Notes under the pieces: generated by a model
Databases searched by the model: none
What the model saw: the letters and a program-made list of their open reading frames with translations, nothing else
Told to the model about the DNA's origin: nothing
From: Amoebophrya sp. A120
Taxonomy: Eukaryota; Protista; Dinoflagellata
DNA: 64,000 nt
Assembly: GCA_905178155.1 (NCBI GenBank)
Contig: CAJINV010000001.1
Location: 155,079 to 219,078, forward strand
Direction: 5' to 3'
Shown here: piece by piece, positions 11,801-63,913 of the stretch
Layout: every line of letters starts with the position of its first letter
Numbering within the stretch: the stretch's first letter is position 1
Translations under genes and position numbers: made by a program

Positions 11801-12230
11801 GGACTCGCTGGTGGAGATGGGGAAGTTGTGCGAGTTGGTGCGGGACAACCTGCCGCAGTACATCCCGAAGGAGGACATCATCAAGGCCGGGGAGGCTGCG
11901 AAGTGGTGCACGGAGGAGCGGTTGCGCCAAAAACGAGAAGCAAAGGCGGAGGAGAAGAAGGAAAAGGCGTACGAAGGTACGGACTCGGTTCTGGCGGGAG
12001 GGGCGAGGAAGAACAAGAAGCAGGCGGAGGAGGATACTATGATGTTGGCGGACCGGCTGGAGGACGCGAAGAAAGCCCAGGCCGCTAAGCGGCAGCGGGA
12101 CCAGATGCAGAACTCCTCCTCCAGCAGCTCGGGGACGAACAACAACGGGTTGAAGTTTGCGAAAAAGGACCAGAACGTTTTCATGGACGAGCTCGAGGCC
12201 TTGTACCAGGACGATGACGACAGCGAGTAG
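8880..12230 (+). CDS. Spliced second gene of the transposon; unknown acidic/charged protein
   Basis: GC3-rich ORF segments 8880-9281, ~9470-10125, ~10735-11390 and ~11520-12230, separated by segments rich in the introner motif. Stop at 12230. No family recognised. Confidence 0.6.
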
Positions 12231-13630: not shown

Positions 13631-14173
13631 TTGGTTTGCATGGAAAATATTTTTTTTTTTGTTCAATGGTCTAAATGGCTCGAATGGTTATGGTCAGTCT
13701 GACCCTCTTGAATCCATAGAAGATCTGATATTCTTGATCTCTGTCATCAATTGATTTGAAAAGATTTCGAATCAGGGGAAAAATAATGATGTTGATGTTG
13801 ATGATTCATTCTGATTTTTATTCGTAGAAATAAAAAGAAAAAGAGTGCCGCGTTGGTGTTTGTGATTGTGTGTGTCTGCCGTGAAATTCATTAATACAAA
13901 CATGACAAGATGATGATTATGAAGATCAGAAAATTGGTGTGAATGTAGTCGGAACATGGGGGACATGTGGAGGTGTTGTTTTGTGCGCATGGAGGCCAAG
14001 GCTCTGCTTCCCGGGCAGCCTCTGTGTCGCGCTTCTGCGCAGTACTCCGCCGATTGTCAAAAGAGTATGGATCTTGTCGTTGTGGTCCGCTTTGGTCCCG
14101 CGCTGCGGCCGCGGCCCGGCTGTGTTGTCTTGTGTGTTCCATAGCTATTTTGTCGTTGTTTTTTATTTTGATT

Positions 14174-30600: not shown

Positions 30601-33600
30601 ACTGGAGGAAGCCGCGCAGCAACCGGGCAATTTTTTTCGTTGCGAAGTGCAGGAGGAGGTAAAACGCGTAGTCTTCCTCCAGTAGCACCCCCTGGAGGCG
30701 TTCTGTGGACACCGCTGCGCCGCTGCTACGTGAAACGAGAGTTCGCGCAAAGCGTGCCCGGTCGTAGAAAACCCGGTAGACTCGGAGCTACCCCCGTAGT
30801 ACCCGTTATCGTCAAGAAAAATACCCCCTGTCCATACTTAAATAATACTAAGCGAAAATCAAAATATGCGCTGTTGATTTGTGTCCACTACACATCGACC
30901 ACGTCTTGCAAGAAGGCAACTTCGGCTCGCCGCCGCATTCTAATGAATTCTGGATTCCGTAGCCGTTTGACCACCTTTATGGCAGCCGTGTGTCAACATC
31001 ATGCGACACAGCTACTTATGGTTGTACGTGAATTACATGATCTGCCGGCGTCAGGGATTTATTATTGTGTACACAAATTCGGCATCCCGAGTTTCGGTTT
31101 TGATTGTAGTGCTAGTGGGGAGCAGGTGGTTTTTTCATTTTGTTGATTTTGATGCCCGCTGTTTTATTTTTTTCCCGGTTTGCGCCGAGCCGGACGCCGT
31201 GAACACGCGGAAGCCCCCAACTCGCGCGCGCGAAGAACTGCCGCTCGAAGTCGCGGCTATGGCGTTCTCAACCGTTACATTTTCAACTGTTCTTACATGG
31301 GTTTGTGATGCAAGAATGGCGAAAGAAGTCAAAGCAAGGAGGTTGCACCTGTAGCATTACGAATTCCGCACAGATTTAGGTGCTGTTTAGACTTGTTAAA
31401 ATTTACCATGCGAAGTAGCTTCGCCTTGTGGTCGCGAGTGTTGATGTTCGTTTTGCATTACAAGTCATTGTATAACAGCTGAGAATGTAACAGTTGAGAA
31501 CGCCATAGCGGTGGCCGACGCTTTGGAGGCTTGTGAAGGTTCGGCAGCCTTCGGCGCATGGGCGTAATTTTGATCCTGCAGCTGCCCCGGGGCAACTGGC
31601 TGCGCAGTCCCTGGGGGGAGAAGCCGGAGAGTATCGGCGGCCAAGTCCTCTAGGAAGATATGGATGCGTCAGGAATGAAATCGACAAAGTTGAAATGATT
31701 TGTCATGCATAAAATGCAGACCACAAAGCGCCTGTCTTGCAGGGTAGGCAAGTGAGGCAGATCGTAAGCCTGTTGGGGGGTAGACACTGGATTGGTAAAG
31801 TAGCACGACAAAAGGCGCCCTCCTTACCCAAACAGCATGACAAACGGGATTTCGGCTTTACCCAAATTCATCATGCACCACTCGCAAACTGGGTATCCAT
31901 TTTATGCATGGGAGATTATTTCAACTTTGACGATTTCAATCCTGGCACTCCCATAGACGATACGCGGGGCGTACGCCTGTGGCCCGCGAAGGCCAAGAAA
32001 ATACTCCAGAGGGACCGCTTCTAAAGAAATCCGGGCAGCCTTCTTGTTATTCTTATTTCCGCGTGAAAAAATGTCCTCTGGACTGGCGAAGGTTTGTTGT
32101 TGCTGCTGTTTCCGCCCGCCATGATCATGATTCGCAGCTTTTTTATCCGTGGTATCAGCCACGTGGTAAGTCAGCTGCGTCACCGCAAAAACAGCGCCGG
32201 GGCTGAACATGGGCGGTGGGCTCGCCGAGGTAATATATCCCACAGAAGAAGTGAAAGGGAGGCAGCACCACATAAATTAAAATTTGCAATGCAAAAACAC
32301 AAAATAAATCTCTCGTCGCGCGTGCTGTCCTAATAAGCAGCATGCTATACCATCGCCCATGACAGATTTATTTTGTGCGATTTGCGTCACGAAGATCAAT
32401 CATGATCTGCCGGTCTTTTTCTGTGGGATACGGTAGAGCTGCTGAAGACGGGGATTAGGAACGCCACCAGGTCACCGGCTTGCGGGAGTGTGTGGCGTTC
32501 TCAACTGTTACATTCTCAATTGTTACATGAATTTGTGATGCAAGAATTGCAAAAGTGAAAGGGGGGAGGTTGCACCTCTAGCATTACAAGTTCTGCACAG
32601 ATTTAGGTGCTATTTAGCCTTTCAAAAATTTGCCATGCGAAGTAGCTTCACCTTGTGGATGTTGATGTTCCTTTTGCATCACAAATCATGTAACAGCTGA
32701 GAATGTAACGTTTGAGAGTCCCATAAAGTGGAAACAGGTATTGCAAGTTGATCTGAAACTGCTGCTGTCGCAGGTGCTGATCACGATCGTTTTTACCTAT
32801 TTTTTGAGAAGTCTTCTGCGGCGGCAGCTTGACGGTAACGGGTGAGGCGAAATGCACCGGCAGCGACAGCTTCCTCGGCGACGATTTCTGAAGATTCCAA
32901 ATGTCGCTTATGGGATTCTCAAACGATACTCTCTCAACTGTTACATGATCTGTCATGCAGAATGCTGATCAGGATCAGCATCCACATGATCAGGCTACTT
33001 CACATGACAAATTTGTGAAGCAGGGCTAATGAAAATCTGTCGTGCCAAATTTGTAATGCGAGAGGTTCAAGCCCCCTTCTCTCACGACTTCACTGTTTCT
33101 ATTCTTGCAAGAACAGCTAAGAGTGTAACGTTTGAGAACGCCATATCGCTCTTGAACACCTTGCCGACCTGTCCCTGTAGCGCTGTCTGCAGCGGACCTT
33201 GTAACTCCGCGAACAACGGCGGGCCTTCGATCGGTGCCCCGGCCGTTTTATGCATTGCAAAAGTAATATCGCACTCGTATAAATGCATGACAAATTCCCT
33301 CAGCATGAGAAATAAAGATTGTAGTGCGGATTTACCTTGAGAAAAAAATTTGTAACGCATGATTGCAATACGAGTACGATACTTTTGCACAGGATACGTT
33401 TGATGTTGACCACGGAATATGACCTGTACGAAAACAGCTGTGCCTTCGGGTCGCAGCAGGCCGAGGTCGTTCCCTAGAAACCGGTTCACGTTCCCGGTGT
33501 CGGTACTCAAAGCCGCCATCAGCCCGCCACTTTCGCCTCCTGCCGACCTGGTGAGGGATTTGGTCAAGAGGCGCAGCGGCGCCTTGATCTCTCTGCTAGA

Positions 33601-36600
33601 AAGAAATTCTTTGGCGGAGGATCCACGACCGCTTGCCACGTTGAACATGCCGCGCGTCACCTGTCGCAGCGCCACTGCCCCCATACCGTTTGCAAAGAAA
33701 TCTACCCACGTCTCCGACGGCCTTGCGTTCTTCTTCTTCTCACCTCCTCGTCGGGAAGTAAAGCCAGCATGTTCTTTGGAGCGCGCACGACCTGACATCA
33801 GCTGCAGCCAGGTCATTTTTTCGCCGCCTTTGGTGAAAATAGTTTTAAAGACTATAGACAGATAAGGACTTGACTCAAAAGCTGTAGGGAAGAGTTGCGA
33901 AAACCTTAAACAGGCTCTAAAGTTGCGGCTCAACCTGCAGCAAACCTGGAGCAAACCCCTAGGGCTTTTCAAAATGGCGCTGCTTGCTACTCGCGAAAGC
34001 GCACGCTATTCGGCCCAAAAGATGGGGGTCGACCCGTAGGGAACAAGAAAAAATCACGAAAAGCGCGACACTTTGGAAGCGCTGAACCTGCATGCTATTA
34101 CGACAAAGCCTGGAGCTTTTCTGGGACTCGAGCTCTAGAGCTTTTCACATACTTGCGCTTTTATTTTTCGAAAGCGCATGCTGCTGTGGAAATATTTCCG
34201 ACAAATTCTGCGACTTGAGCTGTAGGGGTTCAGCGCGATGAACGACAAAGAAACCCCTGGGCGCTGCAAAAATAGCCCGAGCCCTACACGCAGCGACGGC
34301 CCCCGCGCTCAGAAGAGAAGCCCTGCAGCGAGCGCCCTGCAAGCAAGCATGCCTGGAGATCGGCCTGCAATGCCCCAAGCAGTCCTCTGCGCCCTCGGCT
34401 GCACACCTTCCCTGTAACCAACGCCCCGAGCCCGGGCCATTCACTACGCGGCCCCTGCGGAGAGGGGGGCCGCCTCGGCGCCTACTTCGACGCCTATTTC
34501 TACGCCTACCCCTGCGCCTACGCCTACCCCTGCGCCTACCCCTACGGCAACCCCTACGGCTACCCCTACCCTACGGCTACCCCTACCCTACGGCTACCCC
34601 TACGGCCACCCCTACGGCTACGGCTACCCCTACCCCTACCCCTACCCCTACCCCTACCCCTACCCCTACCCCTACCCCTACCCCTACCCCTACCACGTCC
34701 CTGCCCCTACTACGCCGACCCCTACCTCTACGCCTACTGCTACGCCTACTGCTACGCCTACTTCTGCGCCTACTTCTACGCCTGTGGCAGGGGGCGCTAT
34801 TTTTTTCAGCAAAGCCTCCCCCGTCGCCACATATGATTTTACGGCGCTCCATAGGCATACAAGCTTGCACACGCACAACAGATCTGTGCGCGCGTAGAGC
34901 GAGGCGCCGCCTAGAACTCAGCTAGCTCCTACGCAGAACGAAGGCAGGAGAAAGGTGGCCGCAGGAGCAGCCGCGCGCGGCCATGGATTCAGTCCTTGGC
35001 GATGTGGCCTCAAGGTACGTGACACGCAAGCCCCCGCCGCGGCTTTGGTGTATGCGTATGGGCAGGCGCTTCAGGATAAATCAGCGACGGTCTCAGGATA
35101 AATCGATGACGCTCTGACTAGCTTTGGAAGCAAGGGCCCCACGCGGGCGGCCGATACAGGATAGGCTGGCACCTTGTTCGGCGCCTTTGAATTTATTCCC
35201 GGCCAGGCTGTGACGCAAGCCTCCGCTTCGGCCGGATTCGCGATGTCGCTGCTCGCGACGTAACTCCTGAAAATCTGCGAACTTGCGCAAACGAAAAGCG
35301 GGGGCGGGCTTGGGGGGCCCCCTTTCATGAGGATACCAACGGGGGGTCGGTAGCCCTGCGAGAAGGCCTTAAAGGGGGGGCCTGGAGGACCTCGGAGGCA
35401 CCCCAACCCAAGGGGATTTCGGCTTGCAGCCCAGGAGGGCGCTCTGTTGGTCTCCGTGCAAAACAGTCGGGGCGAAGAAACGCCGCGTGGGACCAAGGGC
35501 CGGAAGAGCGCCGCGGCCGGCCGCGGCATCAATGAATGTCATCGGCAAGACCGCGCACGGCTTTGAGAGAGTTATTCTATCAAAGGCCACGCGTGGGCGC
35601 CTGTTTCGCCTGTTGGGGCGTGGGCCTATTGTTGGCTCCAGTTCGCAGCGCCTGTGGCTTTGGGTTGGCCGCGTATAATTGCTGTCATTTTAAACGAACC
35701 GGCAGCACTGCAGGGGCTGTCTGTTGGACATCTACGCCGGCCATGACCGACGAGCGCACGCAAAGCCGTGACGCAATGCGCCACCAATCCTGCCTTCAGA
35801 CTACCGAGCCCAGAATACCGCGGCAGGCGCTGTTGCTACGCGGTCGATTTCCACCGCCCACGAGGTATCTCCTATCTTATCTAGCGACGTCGACGGGTGA
35901 GCCATATGTAGCCGAAAACAGAGCAAAGCTTTTTGAAAAAAAGCGCTTCCCATGCATTGCCCTAGCGCCTACCCCTGCGCCTACGTACCCCTGCGCCTAC
36001 GCCCGCCCCTACGGCTACCCCTACGGCCAGGCCTACCCCTACGCCTACCCCTACCCCGACCCCTACCCCTACTACGCGCGCCCCTACCTCTACGCCTACT
36101 TCTACGCCTACATACTTCCACCCCTACTACGCCTACCCCTACTTTTACGCCTACTTCTACACCTACTTCTGCGCCTACTTCTACGCCTACTTCTACGCCT
36201 ACTTCTACGCCTACGCCTACTTCTACACCTACCTCTACGCCTACCCCGCCGCCTATTTCTGCGTCTAATTCTACGCCTACTCCTGCGCCTATTTCTACGC
36301 CTGCGCCTATTGCTGCGCCCTCAGCTACGCCTACTGGCCAGCTGCGTTCGCGGGCAACCGGGCCCCCAGTAGTCGGCGCGGCCCACTAATCCCCCCGCCC
36401 GCTCCTCGGGCGACGCCGGAGGCATTTTGATGGCGCCCCCGCGCCGCTTTGATTGAGTTTATTTGTTAAGGGCACACAGCGGAAGGCAGTGCCTATGAAT
36501 TGCAGTCGCTTTCGGTCTTCTTTGGGCCGGTTTTTTGCTTCATTGATTCAAGCCGCCGACCGCATGGGGACCAGGGGCGGAGCCCGTGCAGGTCTCGCAG

Positions 36601-40016: not shown

Positions 40017-41825
40017 CACTCTCGCTTCATCCCGGCGTGGACCTTAGCGTCACAATTCTCAACTTTTCCTCGTGGACCTAAATTTGCGCACTATCACCCA
40101 CGCGCTACTCTTTTTCTTTGAAATTCAACCAACACCAGGCGAGATGCACGGTAGGGCGTCGGCAATATCCTTTTCCTTCCACATAATTGCTTCTCATCGT
40201 GCTTCATAGATAAGAGTAAGACACGAGAGAGTTGATGTTGGATATCGTGCGCCGTATGAGGCAGATGGCACTTGCAGTTCAACATTGTCGCTCTTCCACA
40301 GAAAAATAAAGAACACATGCCCGCTGGGCGAAGCACACCTGGCGGGGCCACCCTTCGCAGCGCCGGCCGTAGTTCCGCTATGATCGTGGCCGACGGGGAC
40401 GGCGTGTTTTTAGTGCTTTGCTCTACCTACTACTTTTTTTTACCTAGTAGGGCTTATTTTGCTTTCCGATCGATTTGCTGTTGGCTGGCTTCAGCACTCC
40501 AGGAAAAAAGTTCCGCGCCATCAACAACTTCGGCTTTTTTGATCAGAAGGCGCTTTTGCAGCATAATTCTTAATAGCCAAGCAATCAAATCGTTGCACAA
40601 AGGGCAAGAAGAGCTGGCGCTTGCTGAGCTGTACTGCCTTAAACCTTTCGGGTGACACTTTTTCGTAGAGGAATTGTTTCTACTTCCAAGAATATTGTAC
40701 GGATTTCTACATCAATATGGTGTGTCTGTCCCTTACAAGAACTTTTTTTTGGTTACACGAGGTAGCAGATTTTTCACCCTTGCGGCCTTCGCTGGTACTA
40801 ATATCCGCATTGATATACAACTACGTGGTGGATTCGTTTACTTAATCATGCAAAAACAAAACTGAAAGTATTAAAATTGTTGTTGTTCATGATGTTCTCC
40901 TGTTGTTATTTTTTATGAAGACGCAATTTCAAATCAATATCAATACTTCTAAAGTTGGAGACTATAATTTCATCATCAAAACTTGGTCTGACTGCAGTTC
41001 CGATTCTAGGAAAGAACGAAGTAACGAACTCGTCCCACTAGGAAAACAGATTCGAACTCAATGTCAATAGTGTACTAGATTCCGCACGAAAAATAAACAG
41101 ATTCAAACTCAATAGTTTTAGTTTCGTTGTAGTAATGGTACATAATTAGAAGATAGAGATACTCAGAGACAGTTACAAAACCCACATCAACAAGCTGGAT
41201 GTGGAACAAGCTCAATAAAGAACTCAGTACCTTTCTAAAGTAGATTCTCACTTTCGATATATCCGTTTACGTAGAGGTAGATCATGATCATCGATGACTT
41301 GAATAGGGCAATGACAATAGTTAGTGGTATGCATAGATGAAGAGGCATAAAAAAGACCTACACTTCTATTTTTTCTTTGAAACACTCACACAAAACAAAC
41401 CAGACGAAAACAAGCTACAGCATTGTCCTCTGCCTCCGACCGCAGACAATTGTTGTTGTTCGTGTTCCTGTATCGGACGAAAAGGAAAAAGCTCCTGCTT
41501 CATTCACTATGGCGATTGGTTCTGCAGTAGACCGCGCATCATGACAAGTTTGCTTTCTATCCTCGCGGCATGAAAGAGAAAATGTGCTATGCAGCGTGCT
41601 TCTGCTTCCTGAAAAGGGAGCGGGTAACCTTTGCTGTGAATTTCGTACCCCACTCTAAGAGTCTCTTAGTAGTTTGAGTTTCTTACTCACGACTTACAGA
41701 GAAGAACGTGTGCGTGAAGCAGCTTGTTTTCGTTTTTCTCGGGATACAATCCCAATCGTCCGGGTTGAAAAGCTTCACATCCCCCCCCCGTTCTTATCGG
41801 CACTTGGTCGTGCACGACCAGCTTC

Positions 41826-44800
41826 TCACGGTGCTGCCATCTCGACGCCTTCGCCTTCTGCAGCGACCTCGCCGGCAAGCTCCTTCATTTCCGCTTTGTC
41901 CGGCATAATCATCCCCTTCACGGCATCGAGCAAGCCCTATCAGAGTGCACAACCGCGTGGTCCCAACCGCCTCTCAACTCATTTACATTTGTACTACTGC
42001 ATGAACAACAACATCAGAAGGGTCAGCAAGAGACAGAAAGAATGCAGCTTTTCTTTCATGAAAAACTTTCACAGGATTGTAGTGGTCTTTGGGCTCCTCC
42101 TCGCTCCTGCCAGAATCTGTGATGCTGACATTTCCAAGGGGTTGCAAAAAAACAAAGTGGAAATTTGCTTTGGTATTTTGCATGATGAAGACAAATGAGG
42201 GGGAGGGGGCCGACGAGTTGTGCAGCACTTTCATAAGCCCAAGAACGCCGGCGCGAACACGAAGCCGGCGAGCCCGGATTTGACCACCACCAGAATCACC
42301 ATCGCCGGGTAGATTTCGAAGGCGAGCGAGGTCGAGAAAATCAACAGCACCAGCTGCTGGACCGCGGTCGAGAGGAAGGCGGTGAAGACCGTCAACCCCA
42401 TGTCCTGCACCGCGGTCTCCGTGCGCGCGAGACCCCCACCCGAGGTGGTTCGCGAGTATGCAAAGGCGTGCACAATGTGGATGCTGTACTCGATCTCGAA
42501 ACCCAGGGCCATGATGATGACCGCAAACACGATCACATCCAGCTTCACGTCGAAGGCAGACAGCAGCCCCACGATCTGCACGTTGACCACGAGCATGAGG
42601 ACCCCAATCATCAGACCGTAGTAGGGGTGCAGGAAAAGCATCATCATAATCGTCACGGCCAGGGTGACCACGAACAAGTACTCGGTGAGCTTGTCCAGCA
42701 TCTCGTCATCCCTCTCGCTGTTTTCGAAAAACGACGAAACCACGAACGAATCGGACTCGCTGCCCCACAAGTCGGGTCTGGCGGACCGCGCGTTGTCGAT
42801 GATCGCCTTGATCCGCTTCATGGCGTCGGTCCGCTTCTTCGGATCCAGGGGCGCGCGGCACGCAATGCGCACGGTGGACGAGGTCATGCCCTCGATCATG
42901 CGCCCGTTCCCGTTCGCTGGCGCCTGCATGGCCCACACAATGTTGCGCCCCTGCTCGCGGCCCCAGTAGCTGACGTGCGGCTTGGTAATGTCGGGTTTCT
43001 GCTGCACGTGGGTAGGGGACATTATGAACTGTAACAGTATCGTACTCGTCGTAAGTTCAGATAGAAGTATTGCAACACAAATTAGCTTAGCATGACAAAT
43101 GGAATTTCTCATGCTGGTTTAGCTTGAAAAAGACACTTGTCTTGCATGACTGCAATTAGTACGAGTACGATACTTTTGCAGAGGATAGGCATGTGGGAGG
43201 TGCAGCACGCGTCCTGATTCACGTCCTCGTACCAGGCATGCATGTACTCGTAGAACATCTGCGGATTGTCTTCCCAGTACGCGGTGCGCTTCTCGTAGTG
43301 GGATTGGGTGAAGGCCGGGCAGCTCTGCTTCTCGGTTGAGAAGGTGTTGTGCAGGTTGTACTTTTCATCCTTCAAGGCCCGCATGGTAAAGATCAGCCAG
43401 TTAGGCACCGGGGAGACGGTGACGTTGTTGGCGATGTGCGCGAGAAGCGCGTTCATGTCCGCGAACTGACTGATGTCGGACTGTATGCATTGCAAAAGTG
43501 TCCGGGTCTGGAAACTTGTGATGCAAGGAAGGGAGTAGTGAGCTCACTGTAATGCGCTGCAAAGCATGACAATTTTTTTTCATGGTTCTGAGTTGCGTAT
43601 TCCGCATGAGAAGCTGCGTTTTTGCATGACAGGGAGAAGGAGCTCTTCGCGGCCACGCAATACAGAGCTCAGAGTCATGCCAGGCTAGCATGACAAATCT
43701 CGCAATCTCCCAGACCCAGACATTTTTGCATTTGATAGACTGCGGGCTGACGGGGTCCATCGAGTACAGCAGTTGGTACTGGTCCAGGGCGTTGGCCGGG
43801 GCGGTCGCGGAGAAGCCCCCATTGTACACCTCCGCTAGTTCGTAGCCCCCGCCCCCGACCATCGCCAGCTCCGGGAACCCGAGCCCAACCGCCTGCAGTT
43901 TGGCCGCGGTGTCGGTGGTGTTCACGCCCTGGGCGGTGAGGTATGAGTGTGCGCAACTCCGTGCTCTCCTCCTCATTTGTATTCTACTTATTTCCATTTG
44001 CATGAACAGCAATACAGACCTCAGCAGATATGAAGCCTGTGCATGACAAGTTCAGGCACCGTTTGTAGAAGTTGTACAACTGCTTGAGCTTTGCATTTGC
44101 TCCCCGGAACAATTTGTCATGCAAGCAGTGCCACAAGGGAGCAGTTGCAGTGCAGCTGGGTTCGGAGATCTGCATGACAAATGAGGCGGAGGGAAAGTTG
44201 TTGTGCACTCTCGTATGAGGAGCCCGTTCAGGTACGCGTCGTTGATACCGGTGAAGCGGAAGCTGTTCCGCCCCCGTTTGCTGGTGCCGGTGAAGTATCA
44301 AATGCAAATATCGATCTGGGTCTGGGAGATCATGAGATTTGTCATGCTGATATGTTGGCATGACCCTTAACTCTGTATTGCGTGGCCACAAACAGCCTCC
44401 GTAGCCGTCATGCAAAAACGCAGGTTCTCAAGCGGGATACGCAACTCAGAAGCACGGATGAAAAACTTGTCATGCTTGGCAGCACGTCGCAGTGTGCTCA
44501 CTATAATTCCCTTCCTTGCATCACAAGTTTCCCGACCCAGACATATTTGCACTGGATATGAAGAGCGTGTTCGTCGGACCCGCGGCGCCGTTCAGCAGCG
44601 CGATGTTCTGGGCCGGGTTGGCGATGAAGGGGAGGCGCTTGTTCCCCGTGTTCATGATCAGGTTCATGGGGCAGACCTTGCAACCCAAGTGCGTCGCCGC
44701 GGACAGCGGCTCCGACGCGAGGAAGTTTCCGTACAGCCCCTTGTGGTGCACCTCAAACTCCTCCAGCCAGGAGAACACGCCCGGGACCCCCACCGGATTG

Positions 44801-47800
44801 CTGATCGGGTCGTTCTTGATCTGGTTCATCACGCCCAGAAAGTAGTCCCGATTCGCCTGCTGGTGGTATTTGCCCAGGTGCGAGGGCGGCATGTAGACGG
44901 TGATGAAATCCGAGTAGCCGCCCATGTCCTCCAGATGGTCCAAGAACTTCCGGGCCTTGGATTCCTTGTCCAGATAGTCCTTGCCGTTAAACTCGACCTT
45001 GACGTCCTCAAACATCACGGCGCCCACGCACAGCAGCGCGATCTCGACGCAGATCACAAACGCGATGCAGATTTTGTTGCTCACAATCTTACTGAACATG
45101 GCGTCTCCGGAGGTTGTGGTTAGCAATTTTCCCATGTTCTGCTGCACCTGCTTGTCCGTCCAGTTGCTAGCTGTGGTCGTCTATGCACTGCAAAAGTACT
45201 ATCGCACTCGTACACGACATCGCAATCACGCATTGCAAGTCCCTTACTTTCTCGAGGTAGATCCGCATTACAAATTCCGCTTCTCATGCTGAGGTAATTT
45301 GTCGTGCGATTTTTACTACGTACGATACTTTTGCACACACGATATCGTCCCCGTCTCTTCGGACCGCAAATGCTCTCCGCCGTACTTCTCTGCGAGGACG
45401 AACCCCCCGAGGAAAACGGTGAACAAGGTGATGTAAAGGCCGATCATGCCCAGCGCCGTGTGCCAGCAGAAGTGGCGCAACGCCAACACCTCGACGATGG
45501 ACCCGAAACAGTAGCCGACGAAGATCGCGAGGCAGGAGAGCAGGATCGACCGATGCGCGTACCCGACGGCCTGCTCCATGCGCTCTTCGAACTTCAGCTT
45601 GGGTGTGAGTCGGTCGTAGGCGCGGACCAGAATAATGTCGTAGTCCACCACGATGGCGAGCAGCAGGTGAATGGCGAGCGGTGACATCACGGTCAGGGCA
45701 AGTACGCCGTCGTCCTCCCCGTCCTTGTCCACATCCCCTCCCATCGCGTATCAAGTGCAAAAGTGTCTGGGTCTGGAAGTCTTCCATGCATATTTTACAT
45801 AACCCATGACGCCTGTAATGCATGGCCTAGCATCACAGATTTCTAAAGGGCCTTCTGATGCGTATTCCGCATGAGAAACGCCCACTCCGCGTCGCACAAA
45901 CTGAAGAACTCCTCTTGCTGGTCATGCAATACAGATTTTTTTTACCTTCTAAAGACAGCATCACAAGTTGCAACCTTCCAGACCCAGACATTTTTGCATT
46001 CGATATCGCGTCCCACATTTCGATCGCGCCGATGCCCCAGGAGAACAGCACCGCCAGGATGGGCTGGATCACGACCAGCGCGGCGACCGCGGTGCGGGCG
46101 GGCTTCAGGCCGTTCGGGCCGCCTTCCGCCGAGTAGCGGATGCCGATCGCGCAGATGAGAAAAAAGATCATCAGGAAGAACGTCCCCACCAGGTTGCCGA
46201 TCTCGTTTGTGATCACGCGGACGATCTCCATCGCCAGCCACTTGCTGTGGAAAATGAAAACATCGATGCCCCTGTCGTACAAAGCCTTCCACTGGGACTT
46301 GCTCGGCGGGTCGTCGTCCTTCTCGATGCCGTAGTTGTCCTTGTACTCCTCAATGATTTCATCCACCCACTCCTCCCGGTCCTCCAGGGACAGTGCGTTG
46401 CGGTTCGACACCCGCCGCCACTCGTATGACAGTGCACAACTCCCCCTCCGCTTCCCCTCATTTGTATGGCATGAACGGCAATACAAGCGCCAGCGAGAAT
46501 GCAGGTTTTGCATGACAAAATGAAAATTGCACCGGATTGTAGTGCTATTAATTTGGGCTGCTAGAGCTTGTCATGCAAACAGTGCTAAGAGGCACAGCCT
46601 GATGAATTGGGCACTTTGCATGACAAATGAAGGGGACGAGGGGGAGTTCTTGTGCACATTCATAACTCGTTCCGGTTCAGTTCGCACTCCGAGCGCAGGT
46701 GGTATCACACAGAAAAAAGCTGGCAGGTCATATTTGTGATGCAAAAATAAACTGACAAAAAGATTTGTATTGCATATCGTTAATAGCATGCTATGAGGCC
46801 GCCCATCATGGCAGATTTTTTTGTGTATTTATTTTTGCATTACAAATATGCTCTGCCCGCTTTTTTCTGTGGGATAGGCGGACCAGGGTGAGGAAGGTTT
46901 CGCAATTGGAGATGCGGTACGGCGCGAACTTGCGGTCGGAAGCCAGGTAGGCGAGGCAGCCCTGACACTTGGTCGGGAAGGTGGCCACGGCGGCCCGGCC
47001 GCCCAGCACCGTGGCGGCGTTGGTGGCGTCCTTGGTCGCGTCGCGCCACGTGTGCACCGCCGGGTTGGCGCACGAGTCCGCGTGGTCGGTGCAGGTCTGC
47101 GGGCACATTTCCGCGGTCATCTTGTTCAAAAATTCCGGCTTGATAGTGCAGCCCCCCACGTCCGCGGCGCACTTGCACGCCTTCTCCGGGACGCCGTCGC
47201 AGCCCACGGTTTGCACGGCCGAGTTGAAAGCGATCCGCTCCGAGGTGTCCACGCAGGAATGGCACCCGGGGGTGAGTTTTCCGGCCCCGGCGGCGTTGAT
47301 GGCGCTCACCGGGTTGCCGGTGGCAAGGTACACGGCCCCGGCGGCCAGGTCGTAGCGGTTGTTCAGTAAGTCCAGGTAGGTTTGCAGCTTGGTGTGCTGG
47401 CACCCGATGGCCAGGCAGCTCTGGCGGCACTCCTCCTCCGCGGTGGTGTTGGCCCCCGCCCCGTAGGCGCACTTGGTCTGCAGCGCGGCGTCGCCGCCGT
47501 AGGTGCTGCACTGGGTCTGGTCCTGCTGCCCGACCATGAAGGCCGGCTCCAGCTGCGCACAGAAACCGGGCGCGAGGCTCTCGCAGCGCGCCTTGCACGC
47601 GTTGCCCACCTCGTCGCACTTCGAGTAGGACCGCATCAGGCACATGGCGGCGGTCACGTCCGCGCAGCTGTTCACCGTGCTGGGCTTCCCGATAATGGCC
47701 GCGAGGGCAGTTTCGTCGTCGGTGCAGTTGCATCAAATGTAAAAATGTCTGGGTCTGGAAGATTGCCAGGTTTGTCATGCACATTTTGCATAACTCCTGA

Positions 47801-50071
47801 TGTCTGTGATGCATGCCCTGGCATGACAGATTTTGTGAGGGGTTCCTCATGCCTACACCGCATGACAAATGCTCTTTCCGTGTAGCAAAACTTGGACTCT
47901 CTCTGCTGCTCATGCAATACAGATTTTTTTAGGATCCAAAATCAGCATGACAAGTTGGATTCTTCCAGACCCAGACATTTTTACAATTGATAAGTTGCCG
48001 TACGAGTAGGTCGTCAACTTTCGCAATATCGAACAAAAAAGTGTTAACGTTAACGGTTTTCTTTTCATTTCTTAGATGGCAGTTATGCATTACAAATTTT
48101 GCCTTCCATGCATGTTACGCAATACAAATTTGGGCACCTTTTCTGATGCGTTACTGCATCACAAATTCCGTTATACGTTAACGCTTTTTCTTGTGATACG
48201 CAACGCCGCCCGTTCCTCCTCGTCGAGTTCGTCCACCTCCTGCAGCATGCGCTGGCGGCCGCCGCGGGCTTGCAACATGGCTTTGATCGGCTGCACCGGG
48301 CAGGTGGTCGAGGTGTAGCCCGCCGCTGCATCCGGGGCTGTGCAGTCCGCTTGGACGGACGCGTCGCGGATGTCCTCGTGTACGACCTTCATCAGCAGAG
48401 AGCCCATGTATCCGCTCATGAAGGTGCGAACGGGAAAATTGGAAAGCGCGAGCCGGGTGGGGCCGTCCCAAACGCCCACCAGCGGCGCGGCGGTGTAATT
48501 CAGCATGGCGCCGAAGTGCCGCGGGTCGTTCGTGGAGCAGGACAGCTCGCCCAGAAGTGGATTGGCCAAACCGATCGTGGACAGCCAGCTGTCGGTGGCA
48601 CACCAATATTGGTGGTCCATCTGGTCCGAAGGCACCCCTTCCTGGGTCGTCGACTGGAGACAGGCAGCTTGACTGGTCACCTGGCCGTCCGCCTCAGTGA
48701 CTAAGTCCATGCATCCGGACAACGGATCCGCACGGCAGTAGGGAATGGTGCGGACCTAAGAAGGTAGGGGAGGCAATAAAGCTGGTTGGATATCATAATC
48801 ATTTATCATTTCTTTTCCTCGTTCAGCGTTCGGGCTCGTCGCCTCGTCCTTTATTACCATCCATAATGATGGGTCGTCGAGAAAACAAGCAAGTAAAAAT
48901 GTGGTGCGAACTAAATTGTCTATTTCAAGTACGTACTTACCCCGTAGGCTGCGGTCATTCTTGCAGTGTTGCAAACGTCCGCTGCAGCAACGGTGCCGGC
49001 ATCCGCGCACTGGCACCCGCGCTTCAGCGCAGAGCTCACGTAGACACTGCCGGAGTACTTGCACACCGGGTGGATGTGTTCTCCCTTGTAGGTGCCGCAA
49101 GCGGCCCGGTGCCACTGCGAGGTGGTCTTGTAGTCCATCTTCGTGTTGAAGGGGCAGAAGTCGGGCCGCCACGCGTTGCCCTTTTTGGTCCTCCGGGTCT
49201 GCACGTACTGCTCAAAGTTCCAGAGTTCCTGCAACGCGGGGGTCTCGCACAGCCCGGCGTTGGTGCCCGTGGGCTTGTTGCGCATCCGGAACAGGAAGGC
49301 GAACGCGTCGCCGTCGGACTTCCCGGTTTTGAGATTTTTCTTCAGGCACTGCGTTTCGTAGTCTTTCACGCCGTAATCGCGCCCCTTCCACGTGTCGTCC
49401 CCGATGGCTTCTTTATACGAGATCCGGCCCCCGGTGATTTGCTGCTTGATCGTGTCGTACTTCTTGCTGGTGTCCGACTCGCTGGGCGAAAACACATCGT
49501 AATCGCCGCGAAAGACGAAGCCCTTGCCGATCTGCGTGGGGCCGCGCTGGCCGTCGCCGAGCGCGATGAAGAAGGGGATCGCGAAGAGCAGCGGGATAAG
49601 ACACCCCAGCGAGATGCAAAGCACCGGAAACTGCACCGCCATGCGCCCGTAGGCGCGGCCGACTTTCAGCGCGGCGCTGTCAATCGCCGCGCCGACCAGG
49701 GACAGGGGGTCGTCCGCCACCTCGGGTGGAGCGGGCATTTCGCCCATTACTTGCTCCTTTTCGGGTGCTACTGGTTCCGCCATCTTGTTGCTGTTGGCTT
49801 CCTCTAGTTGAACGTTTACAACCTCGACACCACCAGCACCAGTCGGGCCACTTGCTTCGCCTTCAGCACTTCCTTCTGCACCAGGTGTAGGACCTCCTTC
49901 TTGGTTCCCCGCTTGTGGATCTTGTTCTTGATTCACCTGTTCTTCTTGCCCGGAACTGTTATTTTCGTCTTGGTTTTGCCCGCCTGGGGCAGCTTGGGGC
50001 GATTCTGGTGCCAATGCGTCAGAAGTCAAACCTGCTCCTTGAAGCTCTTGGTCGGTAGTTGCGGAAGACAT
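41826..50071 (-). CDS. Patched/NPC1-like (RND, sterol-sensing domain) membrane protein, 13 exons
   Basis: Two hydrophobic TM bundles with the motifs LAIVVDYDIILV and ALGFEIEYSIHIVHAF..VQDMGLTVFTAFLST, separated by large luminal loops. The junctions checked rejoin in frame (SHM-SPTH, PQS-DISQ, TLF-TGTS, AYG-VRTI). Confidence 0.85.
41938..42235. mobile_element. Introner family C
   Basis: Perfect DR AGCCC. Confidence 0.85.
43023..43187. mobile_element. Introner family B
   Basis: DR GACAT/GGCAT; IR AGTATCGTACTCGT / ACGAGTACGATACT. Confidence 0.85.
43484..43737. mobile_element. Introner family A
   Basis: Perfect DR GACTG. Confidence 0.9.
43942..44215. mobile_element. Introner family C
   Basis: Perfect DR TGAGG. 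Confidence 0.85.
44296..44558. mobile_element. Introner family A, inverted relative to 43484-43737
   Basis: Perfect DR TGAAG; interior is the reverse complement of the 43484 copy. Confidence 0.9.
45182..45344. mobile_element. Introner family B
   Basis: Perfect DR TCGTC. Confidence 0.85.
45749..46005. mobile_element. Introner family A
   Basis: Perfect DR TCGCG, ~30-bp IR. Confidence 0.9.
46425..46664. mobile_element. Introner family C
   Basis: Perfect DR ACTCG. Confidence 0.85.
46703..46876. mobile_element. Introner family D
   Basis: DR GGTGG/GGCGG. Confidence 0.85.
47731..47992. mobile_element. Introner family A
   Basis: Perfect DR AGTTG. Confidence 0.9.
48027..48198. mobile_element. Introner (TATC..ACAAAAAAG.GTTAACGT ends)
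   Basis: Perfect DR CGCAA. Confidence 0.85.
48756..48940 (-). other. Canonical GT-AG intron
   Basis: GTAAGT...TTCTTAG, no IR, in-frame join AYG-VRTIPY. Confidence 0.85.
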
Positions 50072-50625
50072 TTAAGTCAGAGAAGTCCTGCACATCCTGG
50101 GTGCAAGACAAAAATGAGGGTTTTGATTTTTGAATATTGATTTTTGATTTGATTACACAAAGAAAATAAATTCGTGTTGCCACACACGAAAACACAAAAA
50201 GAAAAACTTGAACGATACTTCACTTGGATCTTCCAAAAGGTAACATCAACTTCTTGTCCGGTTAGGTGAGGGGGCAATACTTAGTGGAGGGGAGCTACTA
50301 GTGGCTGGTGGAGGTCGTCGTCGACGTCGTGCAGCTACTTACTTAATATACTTACTGCTAGTAGTGCTAGGGGACGAGAGAACGGGGAATGGGTGGGTGA
50401 TAGACGAAGAACGGTTGTACTTCCTTGAATTGGGGTTGGGTAGCTTTTTATTTTTCGTATTGTTACTAGCCTCTTGACGCGGGCGTCCAGGACGCCCGCT
50501 GGGCTAGTAGATTTAAAAATAATTCTAAAGGTGGTTATGTGTTTAGAAGGTTTGGCGTGGGGTCGAGTAGAATGCGGCTAGAAGGTTGAAAAATATATAT
50601 AACGCTGCCTGTCCCGAGGAAGATC

Positions 50626-53629: not shown

Positions 53630-55036
53630 TAGACGAAGAACGGTTGTACTTCCTTGAATTGGGGTTGGGTAGCTTTTTATTTTTCGTATTGTTATGCTAT
53701 ACTGTTACTGTACTACAATCAACGAAGGGACGAACGTTCCCAACACTTGCTGATTGATATTTTGGACCGGTGCCTGTGATAAGACACTTCTGCTGGATTC
53801 CTCGATATCGATAAAGGTATAAGCTGTAGCTGATCTAACTATCGTTCCATAACGATAGAAGTAGAAGGCCACTGAAGAGTAGAGTCCACTACTAGTAGAG
53901 ACGGAAAATTATATTACGACTATTGTACAGGTGCAGTCTGCACGAAGCAGACTTGGAAAATAAGAGGAAAATGTAATATTATACACGCTACTACGCATCC
54001 ACCTGGGAGCGATAGTAGGGGAAAATCGGCCTGTTCGAAGCGATTTGCGATAAGAAGTGATGGCTTTCTCAGTTGGAGACGAGACACGAAGGGTCATCTT
54101 CGACATAATATCAACACCAGCATCTTCTGCGACCGCTTCTTGTACTATCTATTTGCTACGAGACCACGAGCACAGCTAGACTGCATTCCTCTCAACGACA
54201 GGCCGCGATTTTTCGATGTACTGTCGACCGAGTGCCTGTGCCCACGAATTTTCATACCTACGATATCGAGCTTGCTTCGTACTTTTCTTTTCTGTCAAGT
54301 TCAGCGACAGGCGAAGGCGATGGGAAGTTGCGTTTTATTGTTGCATAAGCTGCTTAAAAGCTCTTTTATGTTTATCCGAAACTTGATGTCCGAAAGAACC
54401 GAAAGCTGAAATTTCCGTCAGACTGGGTACCGCGCTCTATTGGCGTGCGCGTGGACATACAAAGGCAGCCGAGTAAAATCTTGTGACCGTGAGACGCTTG
54501 TTTCTGTTCTCGATTCGATTCACAGCTTCAGGCTGTAGAACACAACTAGGGGACCACAACTAAGCTGGAAGCCCGCAAGAGCTATCACGACCAGTTCTCG
54601 TCGTGTGTGATACGAGTACGAGTTGAACTGATGTAGATTACTACTTTAACTTTTACGCTGCTACTATCTTTTCAGAACTGCACTGCTTGTTTCAAGAGCA
54701 CAAGCAAAGTGATTCTCGTCCAGTGAGAAGTTTGGCTGAGTTCTAAACGACTTCTACCAGTTGCAAAATTTAGTGTACGTTCACGTAACTCCCGAATATG
54801 AGCTGTCTACTATGCGCAACATGGCTCGCTATCGCTATGTTTGTTTTTTCCTCGGTGTCAACAACATCTTTATGTGTGGCGCAACATCAGCGCAAGACCA
54901 AGTTCGAAGGGATCGTGTCACCATTGTAGTAGATGCAACTGGAACTGTACCAGGAGATTTGTGTAAGTATAGCACGAGCAGCTCCAGACATCAAGTTGCA
55001 AACTGTATTCCACCGTGTAGGAAACATGTTCGACGT

Positions 55037-60454: not shown

Positions 60455-63400
60455 TCAATTCCACGCGAGCACTTCCTCTCGGAAGTTGGTCCTCACCCGG
60501 GCGATTGCCGCCTCGATGTCGCCGTAGGAGTAAGTTATCCAGTTCGTCGCGTTGTCGCTTTTTCTCGCCAAGCGAAAGTCAAAGCCTAAAGGATTTGGAT
60601 TTATTTCTATTTCAGCATTACATTCTTGTGTGGCCCTTGAAGTCGTGGACCACGTAGCAGGTGAAGTTCCCTTTCCCAACAGCATCCGCCGCAGGTGTCC
60701 CGCCTCCCAGTCTCCCAGCTGGAAATCCGGTGGCATCATGATGGACTGATTCTTCCCGTTTGCGATGCAGTGCAAGGTCGGGAACAACCTGGCGTGGCGC
60801 ACCAGACTCCAGGCCACGCCCGCGGGCATGTAGCGCTGGTTTACCCACGCAACTTCGCCGGAAACGTTATCGGACTCGTAGCTGCCTCCGTAAAACTTGT
60901 GCCCCGCCTTGCTGGTGCCGAACAGGTCCCGGAGCGCGTAGAAGCAGTTGCGCTGCTCCGCCGGGGGCTGGCGGTGGTGGAAAAACTTTTTGAAAAATTC
61001 GCCTGGGACGTCCATGTGGTCGCCCTCGGCGAAGACCGCGAGGACTTCGACCCGAATGAAGGTGTCTGCATCGATCTGGTACAGGCCAGATTTCTTGTCC
61101 ACGGCTGCATAGAGGAAATCCCGGAACCCGCTCAGCGTGTTGCAGATCGACTTCTCCAGATCCAGCTTCAGCACGACTTTCAGGGACCTTCGCTTCCACG
61201 CGCAATGGTGTCTGCGATTGTATTTCCGGAAGTGGTAGTTGACGTGCTCGAATTGCACCCAGTGCGGATCAACATCTGCACAGAAGGCTTGGTCTTCATC
61301 CTCCGTTTGCTGTTCTTCTTCTCCGTCCGTAGTTCTTGTTGGTGTTCTTGAATCGTCCTCGTCGTGTTCATCTTGTATCAATGGTTCGAGGTTTTCCATT
61401 GTTAGCTCCTCATCCTGTTCAACATCACCCGATGTCGTTTGGTGGTTGGACGAGGAGGATTTGTAGTTCTTTCTCGTCCCGCGACCACTCTTCCTTACGT
61501 AGAAGAGCCGCCCCCACTGGACCACACGACCCGCTCTTGCTCTATTTTTTCTTGAAGATGCCCTGAGTACAGGTGGTGCATCACCTACATTGCTGTCGTC
61601 CAAAATGGTGGAAGAAGTGGTTTTCAAATGCGAGGGTCGTTGTGCAGGACGATCGTCGTGCTCATGCCGCCGCGGGTCTGTCCTCTCTACTGCGCCAGGA
61701 TTATGCATAGCATCGTCATTCCCGGTCGTTTTACTATTCTCCGCCTCCTCGTCGAGTTCTGCTAGCACATCCCGTTTCTTTTTTCGCATATGCAAAGCAA
61801 ATATGTTCTCCGGTTCTGGAAACTTGTAATGCTGGATTGGGAATAAGAAATGCTCTGTGGTGCACATCGAAGCATGAGAAGTACAGCAGTGTCTGCGCTG
61901 CTTAGTGTTGCGCTTTCCGCATGACAAACTGCACTTTTGCATGACAAACAAAAGGGTCTCTTCTTAACACGCATCGCAAACTCAAACTCTTCAGTCATGC
62001 CAGACACGCATGACAGACCTTGCATTATCCTTCCAGACATCCAGGGTGGATATCTGCATTCGATATCGCAGGTAGTTCCGCAGCACTTCGTCCAGGGATT
62101 TTTTCACAGTCCAGGCGAGACCGTACCCCTCGGTTCGGGGGGAAAATGCGTTTCGTAAAGCAGAGTTCGCCTGCTCCAACACGTGATACACCTCGTAGAG
62201 CCCAGAATTGTCTTTGAAGTCGTTCTATGCAGTGAAAAAAAAATATTTCCGGGTCGGACAAAATTCTGCAGCTCTTGGTTTATTTCCAGAACCAGATCTT
62301 CATGCAAGGTATATTACATGACAATCTTCTGCAGCTGCAGTTTGTTTTCCAGACCCAGACGCATTTATTTCATTTGCATTTCATACATTCATCACTGCAG
62401 TCAGCGGCCAAGCGTCCTCCTTGTGATCATCCTCGTCGCCGTCATCAGTGGTTTTACTAGTACCACGATCATTTCCAAGACCTCCAGTCTTTTGCGCTGA
62501 CCAGAGCGCGAGCAGATACAGCGTTAACTTGTCTTGCAGCCCCGGATTGTGCACGACCGCGCTGTCTGAACTGTAAATATGTCTGGGTCTGGAAGGTTGC
62601 GAACTTGTGATGCATAGATACTTAGATCACACAAAAATCTGTCATGCTTGGACAGCAAATAAAGGAGCTCTTTGTCCTGTCGCCGAAACGAGGCGTTTGT
62701 CATGCGGATTAGGCATTGGGAAACCGTATCCAAACCTGTAATGCTAGGCCTTGCATGGCGCACCTTCTGTGTCAAGCAGACACAGCATCACAAACCTCAG
62801 CAATCTTCCAGACCCAGACATTTTTGCATTTGATACGCTGCGAGCGATGTGGATCGCATTCGCCAGTGCCATTTCGACGGAAAGCGTGTCGAAGCCCTGT
62901 TTGGCGGCAAGTAGTATCGCAAGAAAAAACTGCTTTACTGTAAACTTGGGATACATAGAACGGAACGCAAGTGTGTTTGTCTTGCTACACATGCAACGCA
63001 TTGGATTTTCCCTTAGGAAGCACGCATGCCAAGTTTTCTTTGTCATGTGTAACAAACTTGTGACGCAGATCTTGCAAAATCATCACAGTGAAACAGTTTT
63101 TTTGTGGGATAAGTAGCGAGAAGTAGCCAATATTGGCCCCCGCATCGAGAAACAGTGTGTCGCTGTGAAAGGAAAAAAGTGTGTATACAGAGTAACTCTA
63201 CAACTTTTGGACGAAAAGGATTATGCAACTGTGTTTGGCATATGACACCTGTCATGCGCAGATAGTACAACGTGCGAACACGTAAATTAGTATATGAAAT
63301 AAGGAACGGCGCTGATGTTGCACCATGTCTAACATGACGAGCATGAAAAGAGTAAACTGTAAACATGGATTCTCTGCATCACAGGGAATTGTAGTACACG

Positions 63401-63913
63401 ACTGTACACAGGTTTTTTCTCTTGATAGTCCTCGGGATGTGCGTACTGCTGGAGCAGATTTTTGATCAAGAAACTTCCCTGCTGCTCCCACTCCCCGGCA
63501 AAGAGGGCGCAAGAAGAAATGAGCCGGTCACGCTGGACAAAGTCGCTGTAGGTCGCAATCCGAAAATCGTGCACTGTGTCCGCCACCAACTCGGCGGCAC
63601 GGAAGCTCGGATGCGCGGTGGTCGCAGATGACGCAGGAGCGCGAGCTGAGGGGCGTGGAGCTGCGGCAGTCGTTTTTGTGTTCCCGTCGGCGCTCGAGGG
63701 TTCGTCAGCAGTTGCAATTATATGCAGTAAAAAACAAGGCGGCACAGGTGTAGAAGCTTTTATTGTCCTCAGAGGTCTTGGCGCGACAGACTCAGCATCA
63801 GCTGCAACAGCCCTACCACAAAAAGAAAGAACACGCCGGCCCGGGAACATGTAAAATATATATAGACCCGGGAAAGGTAGAAATTGCCCGAAAGTACTGA
63901 AATCGTGAAGCAC
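60455..63913 (-). CDS. Unknown multi-exon protein; 5' end uncertain
   Basis: Long GC3-rich last exon 60455-61788. Upstream exons are separated by family A introners (~61789-62065, ~62226-62385, ~62565-62835). Confidence 0.6.
61789..62065. mobile_element. Introner family A-like
   Basis: Perfect DR TCGCA. Confidence 0.8.

What the first reader, a model, noticed from the sequence alone, without database searches (positions are those of the whole stretch)
41938..48198. 11 of 12 introns in an intact gene are IR/DR elements, leaving 34-80-bp micro-exons
Seen: 11 elements with TAT (or CAT)...ATA-type ends and 5-bp DRs (9 perfect), alongside one ordinary GTAAGT..AG intron. Exons of 34 bp (47993-48026), 38 bp (46665-46702) and 80 bp stay open. 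Known: such introner elements have been described in Amoebophrya; to my knowledge their excision mechanism is unresolved. Inference: two splicing logics act on one pre-mRNA, or the elements are removed at DNA level like ciliate IESs.
Basis: partly seen in the sequence, partly recalled or inferred. Interest (0 to 1): 0.75.

Follow-up and report, generated by a model that had tools for sequence, protein, structure and literature searches.

The report
Transposon introns cut at fixed offsets
Twelve small hairpin-ended transposon copies in one gene of the marine parasite Amoebophrya stay in the DNA but are missing from likely messenger-RNA contigs; this kind of intron is already published, and the cut likely falls 1 base before and 4 bases after each element, likely made by an altered spliceosome.

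Summary
Observation confirmed and extended. The minus-strand gene has 11 TAT...ATA-type elements with 5-bp direct repeats (9 perfect) and one GT-AG intron. A 12th element, without a repeat, lies in the 3' UTR. Removing each element plus one repeat copy gives 1827 aa, identical to an annotated Amoebophrya A120 protein. Likely-RNA contigs fit this model, and a likely-DNA run keeps the elements. These are the published A120 introners (PMC7789003), which already include genes that mix both intron types, so the class is known. Ciliate-style DNA excision is not supported, though other life stages were not tested. The added detail is the cut position: 1 nt before TAT and 4 nt after ATA in transcript sense. 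One junction fixes it exactly and two fit it. Paralogue empty sites fit a cut after 1 or 2 nt (13 and 14 of 15 positions). A planned plus-strand test gave no data. The paper's Table S4 and Fig. S23 legend may already imply the offset, and this scan found it on at least 8 other stretches. The machine is untested; I favour a relaxed spliceosome (about 0.6).

The parts
41826..50071 (-). Coding span of a 1827-aa sterol-sensing-domain (Patched/NPC1-like) membrane protein gene, 13 coding exons
   Evidence: Model is identical to annotated protein P0001; Pfam PF12349 E=3e-9 and PF02460
41471..41746 (-).
   Evidence: Joint 41466->41748, skip 281 = element + 5, no ambiguity, in runs X3 and X6
41938..42235 (-). 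E1 introner, perfect 5-bp repeat
   Evidence: Joint listed, skip 303
43023..43187 (-). E2 introner, repeat with one mismatch; limits the cut to shift 0 or 1
   Evidence: Joint listed, skip 170, ambiguity 1; P0001 residue 1532
43484..43737 (-). E3 introner; same family as E5 in opposite orientation
   Evidence: Joint listed, skip 259; orientation
43942..44215 (-). E4 introner (TAT...GTA on +)
   Evidence: Joint listed, skip 279
44216..44295 (-). 80-bp exon with both repeat copies (75 nt in mRNA)
   Evidence: Side length 75 at both joints
44296..44558 (-). E5 introner
   Evidence: Joint listed, skip 268
45182..45344 (-). E6 introner; same family as E2 in opposite orientation
   Evidence: Removal inferred with E7 from contig piece lengths and from P0001 identity
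45749..46005 (-). E7 introner
   Evidence: As E6
46425..46664 (-). E8 introner
   Evidence: Removal inferred with E9 from contig piece lengths and P0001
46665..46702 (-). 38-bp micro-exon (33 nt in mRNA)
   Evidence: Record gap of 32 nt plus 1 slid letter in X3 record 9
46703..46876 (-). E9 introner, repeat with one mismatch; limits the cut to shift 2 or less
   Evidence: Piece 46876-47725 has 0 other letters; P0001 residue 855
47731..47992 (-). E10 introner (CAT...ATA on +)
   Evidence: Removal inferred with E11 from contig piece lengths and P0001
47993..48026 (-). 34-bp micro-exon (29 nt in mRNA)
   Evidence: Record gap of 29 nt in X3 record 9
48027..48198 (-). E11 introner
   Evidence: As E10
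48756..48940 (-). Canonical GT-AG intron, 185 bp
   Evidence: 185 letters skipped between two pieces of X3 record 9, kept in X1 record 8

Best explanation
These are small non-autonomous transposon copies that stay in the DNA and are missing, with exactly 5 flanking bases, from likely mRNA contigs; the cut likely falls 1 base before TAT and 4 bases after ATA in transcript sense and is likely made on the pre-mRNA by the cell's own spliceosome with relaxed end rules. Step 1 (shown): insertion duplicates 5 bp of target. Step 2 (shown for 6 joints, inferred from lengths for 6): element plus 5 nt is absent from the transcript, restoring the pre-insertion frame. Step 3 (shown at one junction, compatible at two, inferred in general): the intron is N-UAY...RUA-NNNN, so U is fixed at +2 as in GU while +1 and the 3' dinucleotide are free. 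Step 4 (predicted): the terminal inverted repeats pair, closing at +2 with -5, and hold the two ends at a fixed distance; this would let exons of 29-33 nt survive, because each intron is defined by its own hairpin. Step 5 (inferred, untested): U2/U5/U6 catalyse the cut, with the hairpin standing in for U1 and AG recognition.
For: 5-bp target duplication: 100 of 119 two-ended copies of one family in another assembly have a perfect 5-bp repeat, against 10 or fewer for any other length from 2 to 9. In 12 of 12 filled/empty paralogue sites kept, the empty site holds a single 5-mer. Removal: one 5926-nt contig (X3, depth 805) fits the 13-exon model; 6 element joints are listed, each element + 5, in both X3 and X6. 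The model equals P0001, and orthologues are gap-free at 10 of 11 and 9 of 11 element junctions. Cut position: E12 exact, E2 shift 0-1, E9 shift 2 or less. Paralogue tally: 13 of 15 informative positions fit shift 1, 9 of 15 fit the mirror shift 4. All 9 predominant A120 non-canonical motifs in the paper's Table S4 have T at +2. The repeat is not needed: E12 matches at 1 of 5 positions. Folding: 13-23 end-to-end pairs in 12 of 12 introns, and the +2/-5 pair in 8 of 12. Machinery: the paper reports 83 of 89 spliceosomal proteins and U2, U4, U5, U6 in A120, with U1 snRNA not detected. Among its 9 predominant motifs, 3 start GT and 3 end AG.
Against: Nothing here tests the spliceosome. In 67 copies with a strand call, AG at the predicted 3' end occurs in only 3, no more than chance; GT at the 5' end occurs in 24, which codon-position bias can explain. 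Only 1 junction fixes the offset exactly; 9 of 12 cannot locate it. The paralogue tally fits shift 2 slightly better (14 of 15), 2 of 9 informative sites conflict with shift 1, and one dropped site (28013) also read against it. The paper calls splice sites variable relative to the hairpin. In 4 of 12 folds the +2/-5 pair is absent. RNA support is contigs from 2 samples of 1 study, marked 'RNA?' by the tool. Euglena introns with a similar spacer code are argued to use other machinery.
Confidence: 0.57

Rival explanations
1. Same RNA-level removal at the same offset, but by a second, non-spliceosomal machine (structure-guided endonuclease plus ligase, or direct circularisation), as proposed for euglenid nonconventional introns.
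For: The 3' dinucleotide is free (16 of 16 types among 67 copies). Paired ends at fixed spacers resemble the Euglena code of 3 nt and 5-6 nt. U1 snRNA was not detected. The elements work in both orientations (32 sense, 35 antisense).
Against: U is fixed at +2 as in GU. GT- and -AG hybrids are among the commonest published motifs, whereas hybrids are rare in Euglena. The paper finds the same repeat layout in 15% of A120 canonical introns. Tunicate non-canonical introns are spliceosomal (review passage).
Confidence: 0.27
2. RNA-level removal is real, but the cut position is variable or differs from 1+4 (for example anywhere inside the repeat, or 2+3).
For: Nine of 12 junctions cannot locate the cut. 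Paralogue sites fit shift 2 at 14 of 15 positions. The paper's Fig. 3 legend calls the sites variable.
Against: E12 has a single unambiguous joint at shift 1 in two samples, and E2 excludes shift 2. T at +2 in 9 of 9 published motifs.
Confidence: 0.1
3. The elements are excised from DNA in a somatic or stage-specific genome, like ciliate IESs.
For: TA-type paired ends and flanking repeats look IES-like (recalled). Missing from mRNA is also expected after DNA excision. Contigs drop rare variants, and only one likely-DNA run was laid.
Against: Run X1 (keeps the GT-AG intron, so likely DNA) has depth 0 at all 6 listed precise joints and spans E12, E1 and E4 whole; it may be the source of the window. 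Nine sites exclude the mirror cut and 1 fits only shifts 3-5, while elements sit 32:35 in either orientation; a cutter oriented by the element should mirror about half (p about 0.01, my arithmetic). A search for Amoebophrya with programmed DNA elimination listed no paper naming Amoebophrya.
Confidence: 0.03
4. The skips are reverse-transcriptase template switches across hairpins between direct repeats, a known source of false non-canonical joints (PMC2923612, search listing only).
For: Hairpin plus direct repeat is the layout that favours this artefact, and all RNA evidence is cDNA-derived.
Against: E12 has no usable repeat yet loses element + 5 exactly. All 11 coding elements must go to make the protein, which is collinear with orthologues. 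The fully skipped form is one contig at depth 805.
Confidence: 0.02

Closest known systems
Introner elements among the non-canonical introns of Amoebophrya sp. A120 (Farhat et al. 2021, PMC7789003; read: abstract, sections 10-12, 16, 20, passages, supplement parts 2-3 of 5; figures not visible)
   Same: TAT-starting inverted repeats, 5-bp direct repeats, no GT-AG ends, repeated families, genes mixing both intron types. The host protein is identical to an A120 annotation.
   Different: No difference in kind. The main text calls the cut variable relative to the hairpin; here it fits one offset. The Fig. S23 legend ('1-5' nucleotides) and Table S4 may already imply that offset.
Introners in Gozashti et al. 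2025 (PMC12130899; passages)
   Same: A120 introners giving 'tens of introns in a single gene'; terminal-inverted-repeat transposon origin.
   Different: The passages read deal with origin and mobility, not with how the elements are removed.
Euglenid nonconventional introns (Nomura et al. 2025, PMC12501133; abstract, sections 8 and 12)
   Same: Paired ends, fixed spacers between cut and stem, coexistence with GT-AG introns, proposed MITE origin, unknown machinery.
   Different: Spacers of 3 and 5-6 nt with CDG...CH'G and a purine at the next exon start; here 1 and 4 nt with TAT...ATA, and a purine in 6 of 12.
Fritillaria non-canonical introns and Micromonas/Aureococcus introners (review PMC11282704; passages)
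   Same: MITE-derived introns removed by a spliceosome, with the target duplication shaping the ends.
   Different: Those keep specific or canonical end dinucleotides; here only U at +2 is fixed.
Ciliate internal eliminated sequences (recalled; reviews seen only as search listings)
   Same: Short transposon-derived inserts in coding DNA that must be removed precisely.
   Different: IESs leave the somatic DNA; these stay in the DNA run tested, and the cut follows transcript direction.

Membership tests
Amoebophrya A120 introner elements | Non-canonical intron supported by RNA | tested here: met
   6 joints listed and 6 inferred from piece lengths; no equivalent placement gives GT..AG on the transcribed strand for any of the 11 coding elements
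Amoebophrya A120 introner elements | Inverted repeat of 8-20 nt joining the two ends | tested here: met
   13-23 end-to-end pairs in 12 of 12 folds; arms up to 65 nt
Amoebophrya A120 introner elements | Direct repeat of 3-5 nt over the boundaries | tested here: met
   9 perfect, 2 with one mismatch; E12 has lost it
Amoebophrya A120 introner elements | End motif TAT, seven variable bases, then at least three A | tested here: met
   Read by eye: at one or both ends in 9 of 12 (E10 counted with CAT); E1, E4 and E8 have the triplet but not the A run
Amoebophrya A120 introner elements | Repeated family without internal transposase | tested here: met
   Families within the window; 119 copies of one family in loci L001-L138; 163-298 bp is too short for a transposase
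Non-autonomous TIR DNA transposon (MITE) | Target-site duplication shown by an empty site | tested here: met
   12 of 14 filled/empty paralogue pairs kept, each empty site with one 5-mer
Non-autonomous TIR DNA transposon (MITE) | Cognate transposase in the genome | not tested
   No genome held; the paper reports none in A120; unchecked scan notes propose hAT-like candidates
U2-type spliceosomal intron | GT...AG ends | tested here: not met
   only U at +2 is kept under the 1+4 cut
U2-type spliceosomal intron | Lariat formation and dependence on U2/U5/U6 | not testable with these tools
   Needs lariat mapping or inhibition
Euglenid nonconventional intron | Fixed spacers between cut sites and a terminal stem | tested here: inconclusive
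   Alike in kind, but 1 and 4 nt rather than 3 and 5-6; exact at one junction only
Euglenid nonconventional intron | CDG...CH'G motif and purine at the downstream exon start | tested here: not met
   Ends are TAT...ATA; purine in 6 of 12 and 40 of 67
Euglenid nonconventional intron | Release as circular RNA | not testable with these tools
   Only contigs of this strain were available
Ciliate IES | Precise excision from somatic DNA | tested here: inconclusive
   No excision joint in run X1 at 6 of 6 listed joints; one run, contigs only, other stages untested
Ciliate IES | One boundary TA left behind (Paramecium type; recalled) | tested here: not met
   Both TA-containing ends are removed with the element

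The most novel reading that the evidence does not exclude
Amoebophrya runs a second, non-spliceosomal splicing machine that measures 1 nt and 4 nt from a TAT/ATA stem, ignores the boundary bases and the direct repeat, and removes most of its introns. It would have arisen independently of the Euglena N3...N5 code and would make almost any 5-bp-duplicating transposon insertion harmless.
Probability: 0.25. Interest if true: 0.85.

Novelty: already known. Interest (0 to 1): 0.4.

Why it matters
The elements and mixed genes are published, and this protein is already annotated, so the gene itself is an ordinary example. What matters is the open question of how about 65% of this organism's introns are removed without GT-AG. 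A fixed 1+4 offset that does not need the direct repeat would turn 'variable, unknown borders' into a simple code. It says where to look for a branch point or circle junction, allows correct annotation, and gives a direct comparison with the Euglena spacer code. It also explains why element + 5 nt restores the frame at any insertion site, and so why these transposons could spread through exons.

Tried and rejected
Plus-strand test of the offset, predicted in advance (note): four runs laid 0 contigs on 3600-13400, and one exon of that region had no database protein. The test gave no result either way, and the blank is no proof that the genes are silent. Gene at 60455-63700 (P0006): of 5 elements only one was informative (shift 3 or less, annotation only); one mismatch is synonymous, and one boundary I had set wrongly proved to have a perfect repeat. 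Codon-phase bias (8:3:0 here, 37:14:16 in other loci) was rejected as evidence for the offset: the favoured frame is also the one in which the 5-bp target is centred on a codon, so a symmetric insertion preference could give it. The eight copies with 1-2 repeat mismatches that were translated under each cut were not decisive. No AG enrichment at predicted 3' ends. Frame-preserving GT-AG or GC-AG sites exist near all 11 elements but do not match the listed joints. Boundary slips of mine, corrected on the way: E6 end, canonical acceptor (11 to 17), sites 15146 and 16842 (49 and 52 to 56). Without site 15146 the tally is 10 of 12 for shift 1 and 11 of 12 for shift 2. Sites 28013 and 33249 were dropped for flank matches under 7 of 10. 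Roy et al. 2023 is not held. No whole genome is held.
Full report
Observation. The region holds a minus-strand gene (ATG at 50071, stop ending at 41826). Two random exon 5-mers match with p = 0.0014. Removing each element plus one repeat copy, and the GT-AG intron 48756-48940, gives an open frame of 1827 aa. Removing the elements alone gives 566 aa, and keeping any one element truncates the protein. No placement of a precise excision gives GT..AG on the transcribed strand.

Identity. The model is identical to database protein P0001, labelled Amoebophrya sp. A120. It carries a sterol-sensing/Patched domain. Two orthologues (68% and 58% identical) have no gap within 2 residues at 10 of 11 and 9 of 11 element junctions; the background rate of nearby gaps is 13%. 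Farhat et al. 2021 (PMC7789003) describe exactly such elements: inverted repeats starting with TAT, direct repeats of 3-5 nt, 65% non-canonical introns in A120, and genes holding both intron types. Gozashti et al. 2025 note tens of introner-derived introns in single A120 genes (passages). The class is therefore published.

RNA. Four of 14 listed runs were laid on the gene. In X3 one 5926-nt contig at depth 805 follows the exon model. Six element joints are listed (E12, E1-E5), each skipping element + 5 nt, and the same six appear in X6, a second sample of the same study. The joints of E6-E11 are not listed because the tables were cut; they are supported in pairs by the record lengths between listed pieces (398 + 1, 32 + 1 and 29 nt, as the model predicts) and by the identity with P0001. 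The tool only guesses that X3 and X6 are RNA; the X3 contig also lacks the GT-AG intron, which supports that guess. The contigs revealed a twelfth element, E12 (41471-41746), in the 3' UTR about 80 nt past the stop codon.

DNA. Run X1 keeps the GT-AG intron and so is likely DNA. It has depth 0 at all six precise joints and spans E12, E1 and E4 whole at depth 20-30. It may be the run behind the window, contigs drop rare variants, and no other life stage was examined. IES-like excision is therefore unsupported rather than excluded.

Origin. Both ends were found for 119 copies, and 23 matches had no mate. Of the 119, 100 have a perfect 5-bp repeat; no other length from 2 to 9 exceeds 10. Two paralogous minus-strand regions of the window (about 14000-21600 and 25200-33900) carry elements at different places. 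At 12 of 14 such sites kept, the empty copy holds a single 5-mer. The repeats are target-site duplications, with no clear base preference in 100 copies.

Where the cut falls. Shift k means that k nt of the left repeat are kept on the + strand. With perfect repeats the cut cannot be placed (9 of 12). E12 has flanks matching at 1 of 5 positions and a single joint with no ambiguity: 4 nt left and 1 nt right of the element are removed with it (shift 1). In transcript sense the intron starts 1 nt before TAT and ends 4 nt after ATA. E2 allows shift 0 or 1, and E9 allows shift 2 or less. At paralogue sites with mismatched repeats, the copy matching the empty site fits shift 1 at 13 of 15 positions, shift 2 at 14, shift 0 at 9 and the mirror shift 4 at 9; 7 of 9 sites fit shift 1 fully. 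The two dropped sites and my boundary corrections are listed under Tried and rejected. This tally assumes the intronic copy drifts faster, and it cannot separate shift 1 from 2; the RNA joints do. Nine sites exclude the mirror cut and one fits only shifts 3-5. Copies of one family sit 32 sense and 35 antisense to their genes (strand calls for 67 of 100 copies, method right on strand in 16 of 16 known cases). A cutter oriented by the element should mirror about half the sites, so the cut appears to follow the transcript. All informative sites are in minus-strand genes; my advance test on plus-strand genes returned no data.

Mechanism. Under this cut the intron reads N-UAY...RUA-NNNN. U at +2 is fixed, and +1 and the last two bases are free: all 16 end dinucleotides occur among 67 copies. 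All 9 predominant A120 motifs in the paper's Table S4 have T at +2, which fits. The folded introns pair end to end in 12 of 12 cases and close at +2 with -5 in 8 of 12 (no shuffle control run). E12 shows the repeat is not needed for removal, which also argues against RT template switching. I favour a relaxed U2-type spliceosome: U at +2, published U2/U4/U5/U6 and 83 of 89 proteins with U1 snRNA not detected, GT- and -AG hybrids among the commonest motifs, and the tunicate precedent. This step is inference only. AG is not enriched at predicted 3' ends in my sample (3 of 67), and Euglena has a similar spacer code that its authors assign to other factors. The micro-exons need no special device if each intron is defined by its own hairpin (inference).

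Novelty. Five full-text searches on Amoebophrya introns, splicing, transposases and branch points listed no paper that states a 1+4 offset or tests the mechanism; I read only the papers cited, in the parts named. The main text of PMC7789003 calls the cut variable, but its Fig. S23 legend places A120 inverted repeats '1-5' nucleotides from the splice sites, which may be this offset. Its figures, supplement parts 1, 4 and 5 and Roy et al. 2023 were not seen and may bear on this. I noted the offset, before looking at earlier scan notes; at least 8 of them report a fixed offset on other stretches of this genome, two naming 1 and 4 in the lines shown. They are unchecked AI notes and are not counted as support.

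Verdict. Real, precisely removed and already known as a class. The fixed offset is a modest, testable addition: likely true (about 0.8) but exactly shown here at only one junction. Interest 0.4.

Noticed in passing
window 41938-48198 and loci L001-L138: Insertions favour one codon frame: 8:3:0 in this gene (p = 0.012) and 37:14:16 in 67 other copies (p = 0.0007), although target base composition is flat. It equals phase 0 under the 1+4 cut. Unexplained.
   Followed up: partly
window 41471-48198: An internal motif GCAT(G/C/T)ACAA occurs in 10 of 12 elements, in either orientation, and 0 times in 3937 nt of exon; a possible transposase-binding or splicing signal.
   Followed up: partly
window 41467-41747: The 3' UTR intron ends about 80 nt past the stop codon, yet the spliced contig is deep (805-1310 in X3); of interest for nonsense-mediated decay in this lineage.
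   Followed up: no
window 14000-21600 and 25200-33900: Two paralogous minus-strand regions, 70-98% alike in blocks, with mostly different element insertions; no Pfam match for the two ORFs tested.
   Followed up: partly
window 3700-8090 and 8881-12230: Two plus-strand genes with old elements whose repeats have decayed; no RNA contigs laid, no Pfam match for 4 exons, no database protein for one exon.
   Followed up: partly
window 50401-50465 and 53630-53694: A 65-bp direct repeat (read by eye) brackets about 3.2 kb of a GC-rich array of short direct and inverted units just upstream of the gene; it looks like an insertion with a long duplication.
   Followed up: no
window 24861-25258: A near-perfect palindrome of about 400 bp between genes.
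   Followed up: no
run X12 laid on window 47732-47992: In raw RNA reads under the same species label, over 100 reads carry an end of the E10 family, and 64 of them run on into one foreign flank; an abundant RNA seems to keep an element end.
   Followed up: no
window 60455-63700: A neighbouring minus-strand gene (P0006, 947 aa) has 5 more elements, including two that start TCT and TGT instead of TAT on the + strand.
   Followed up: partly
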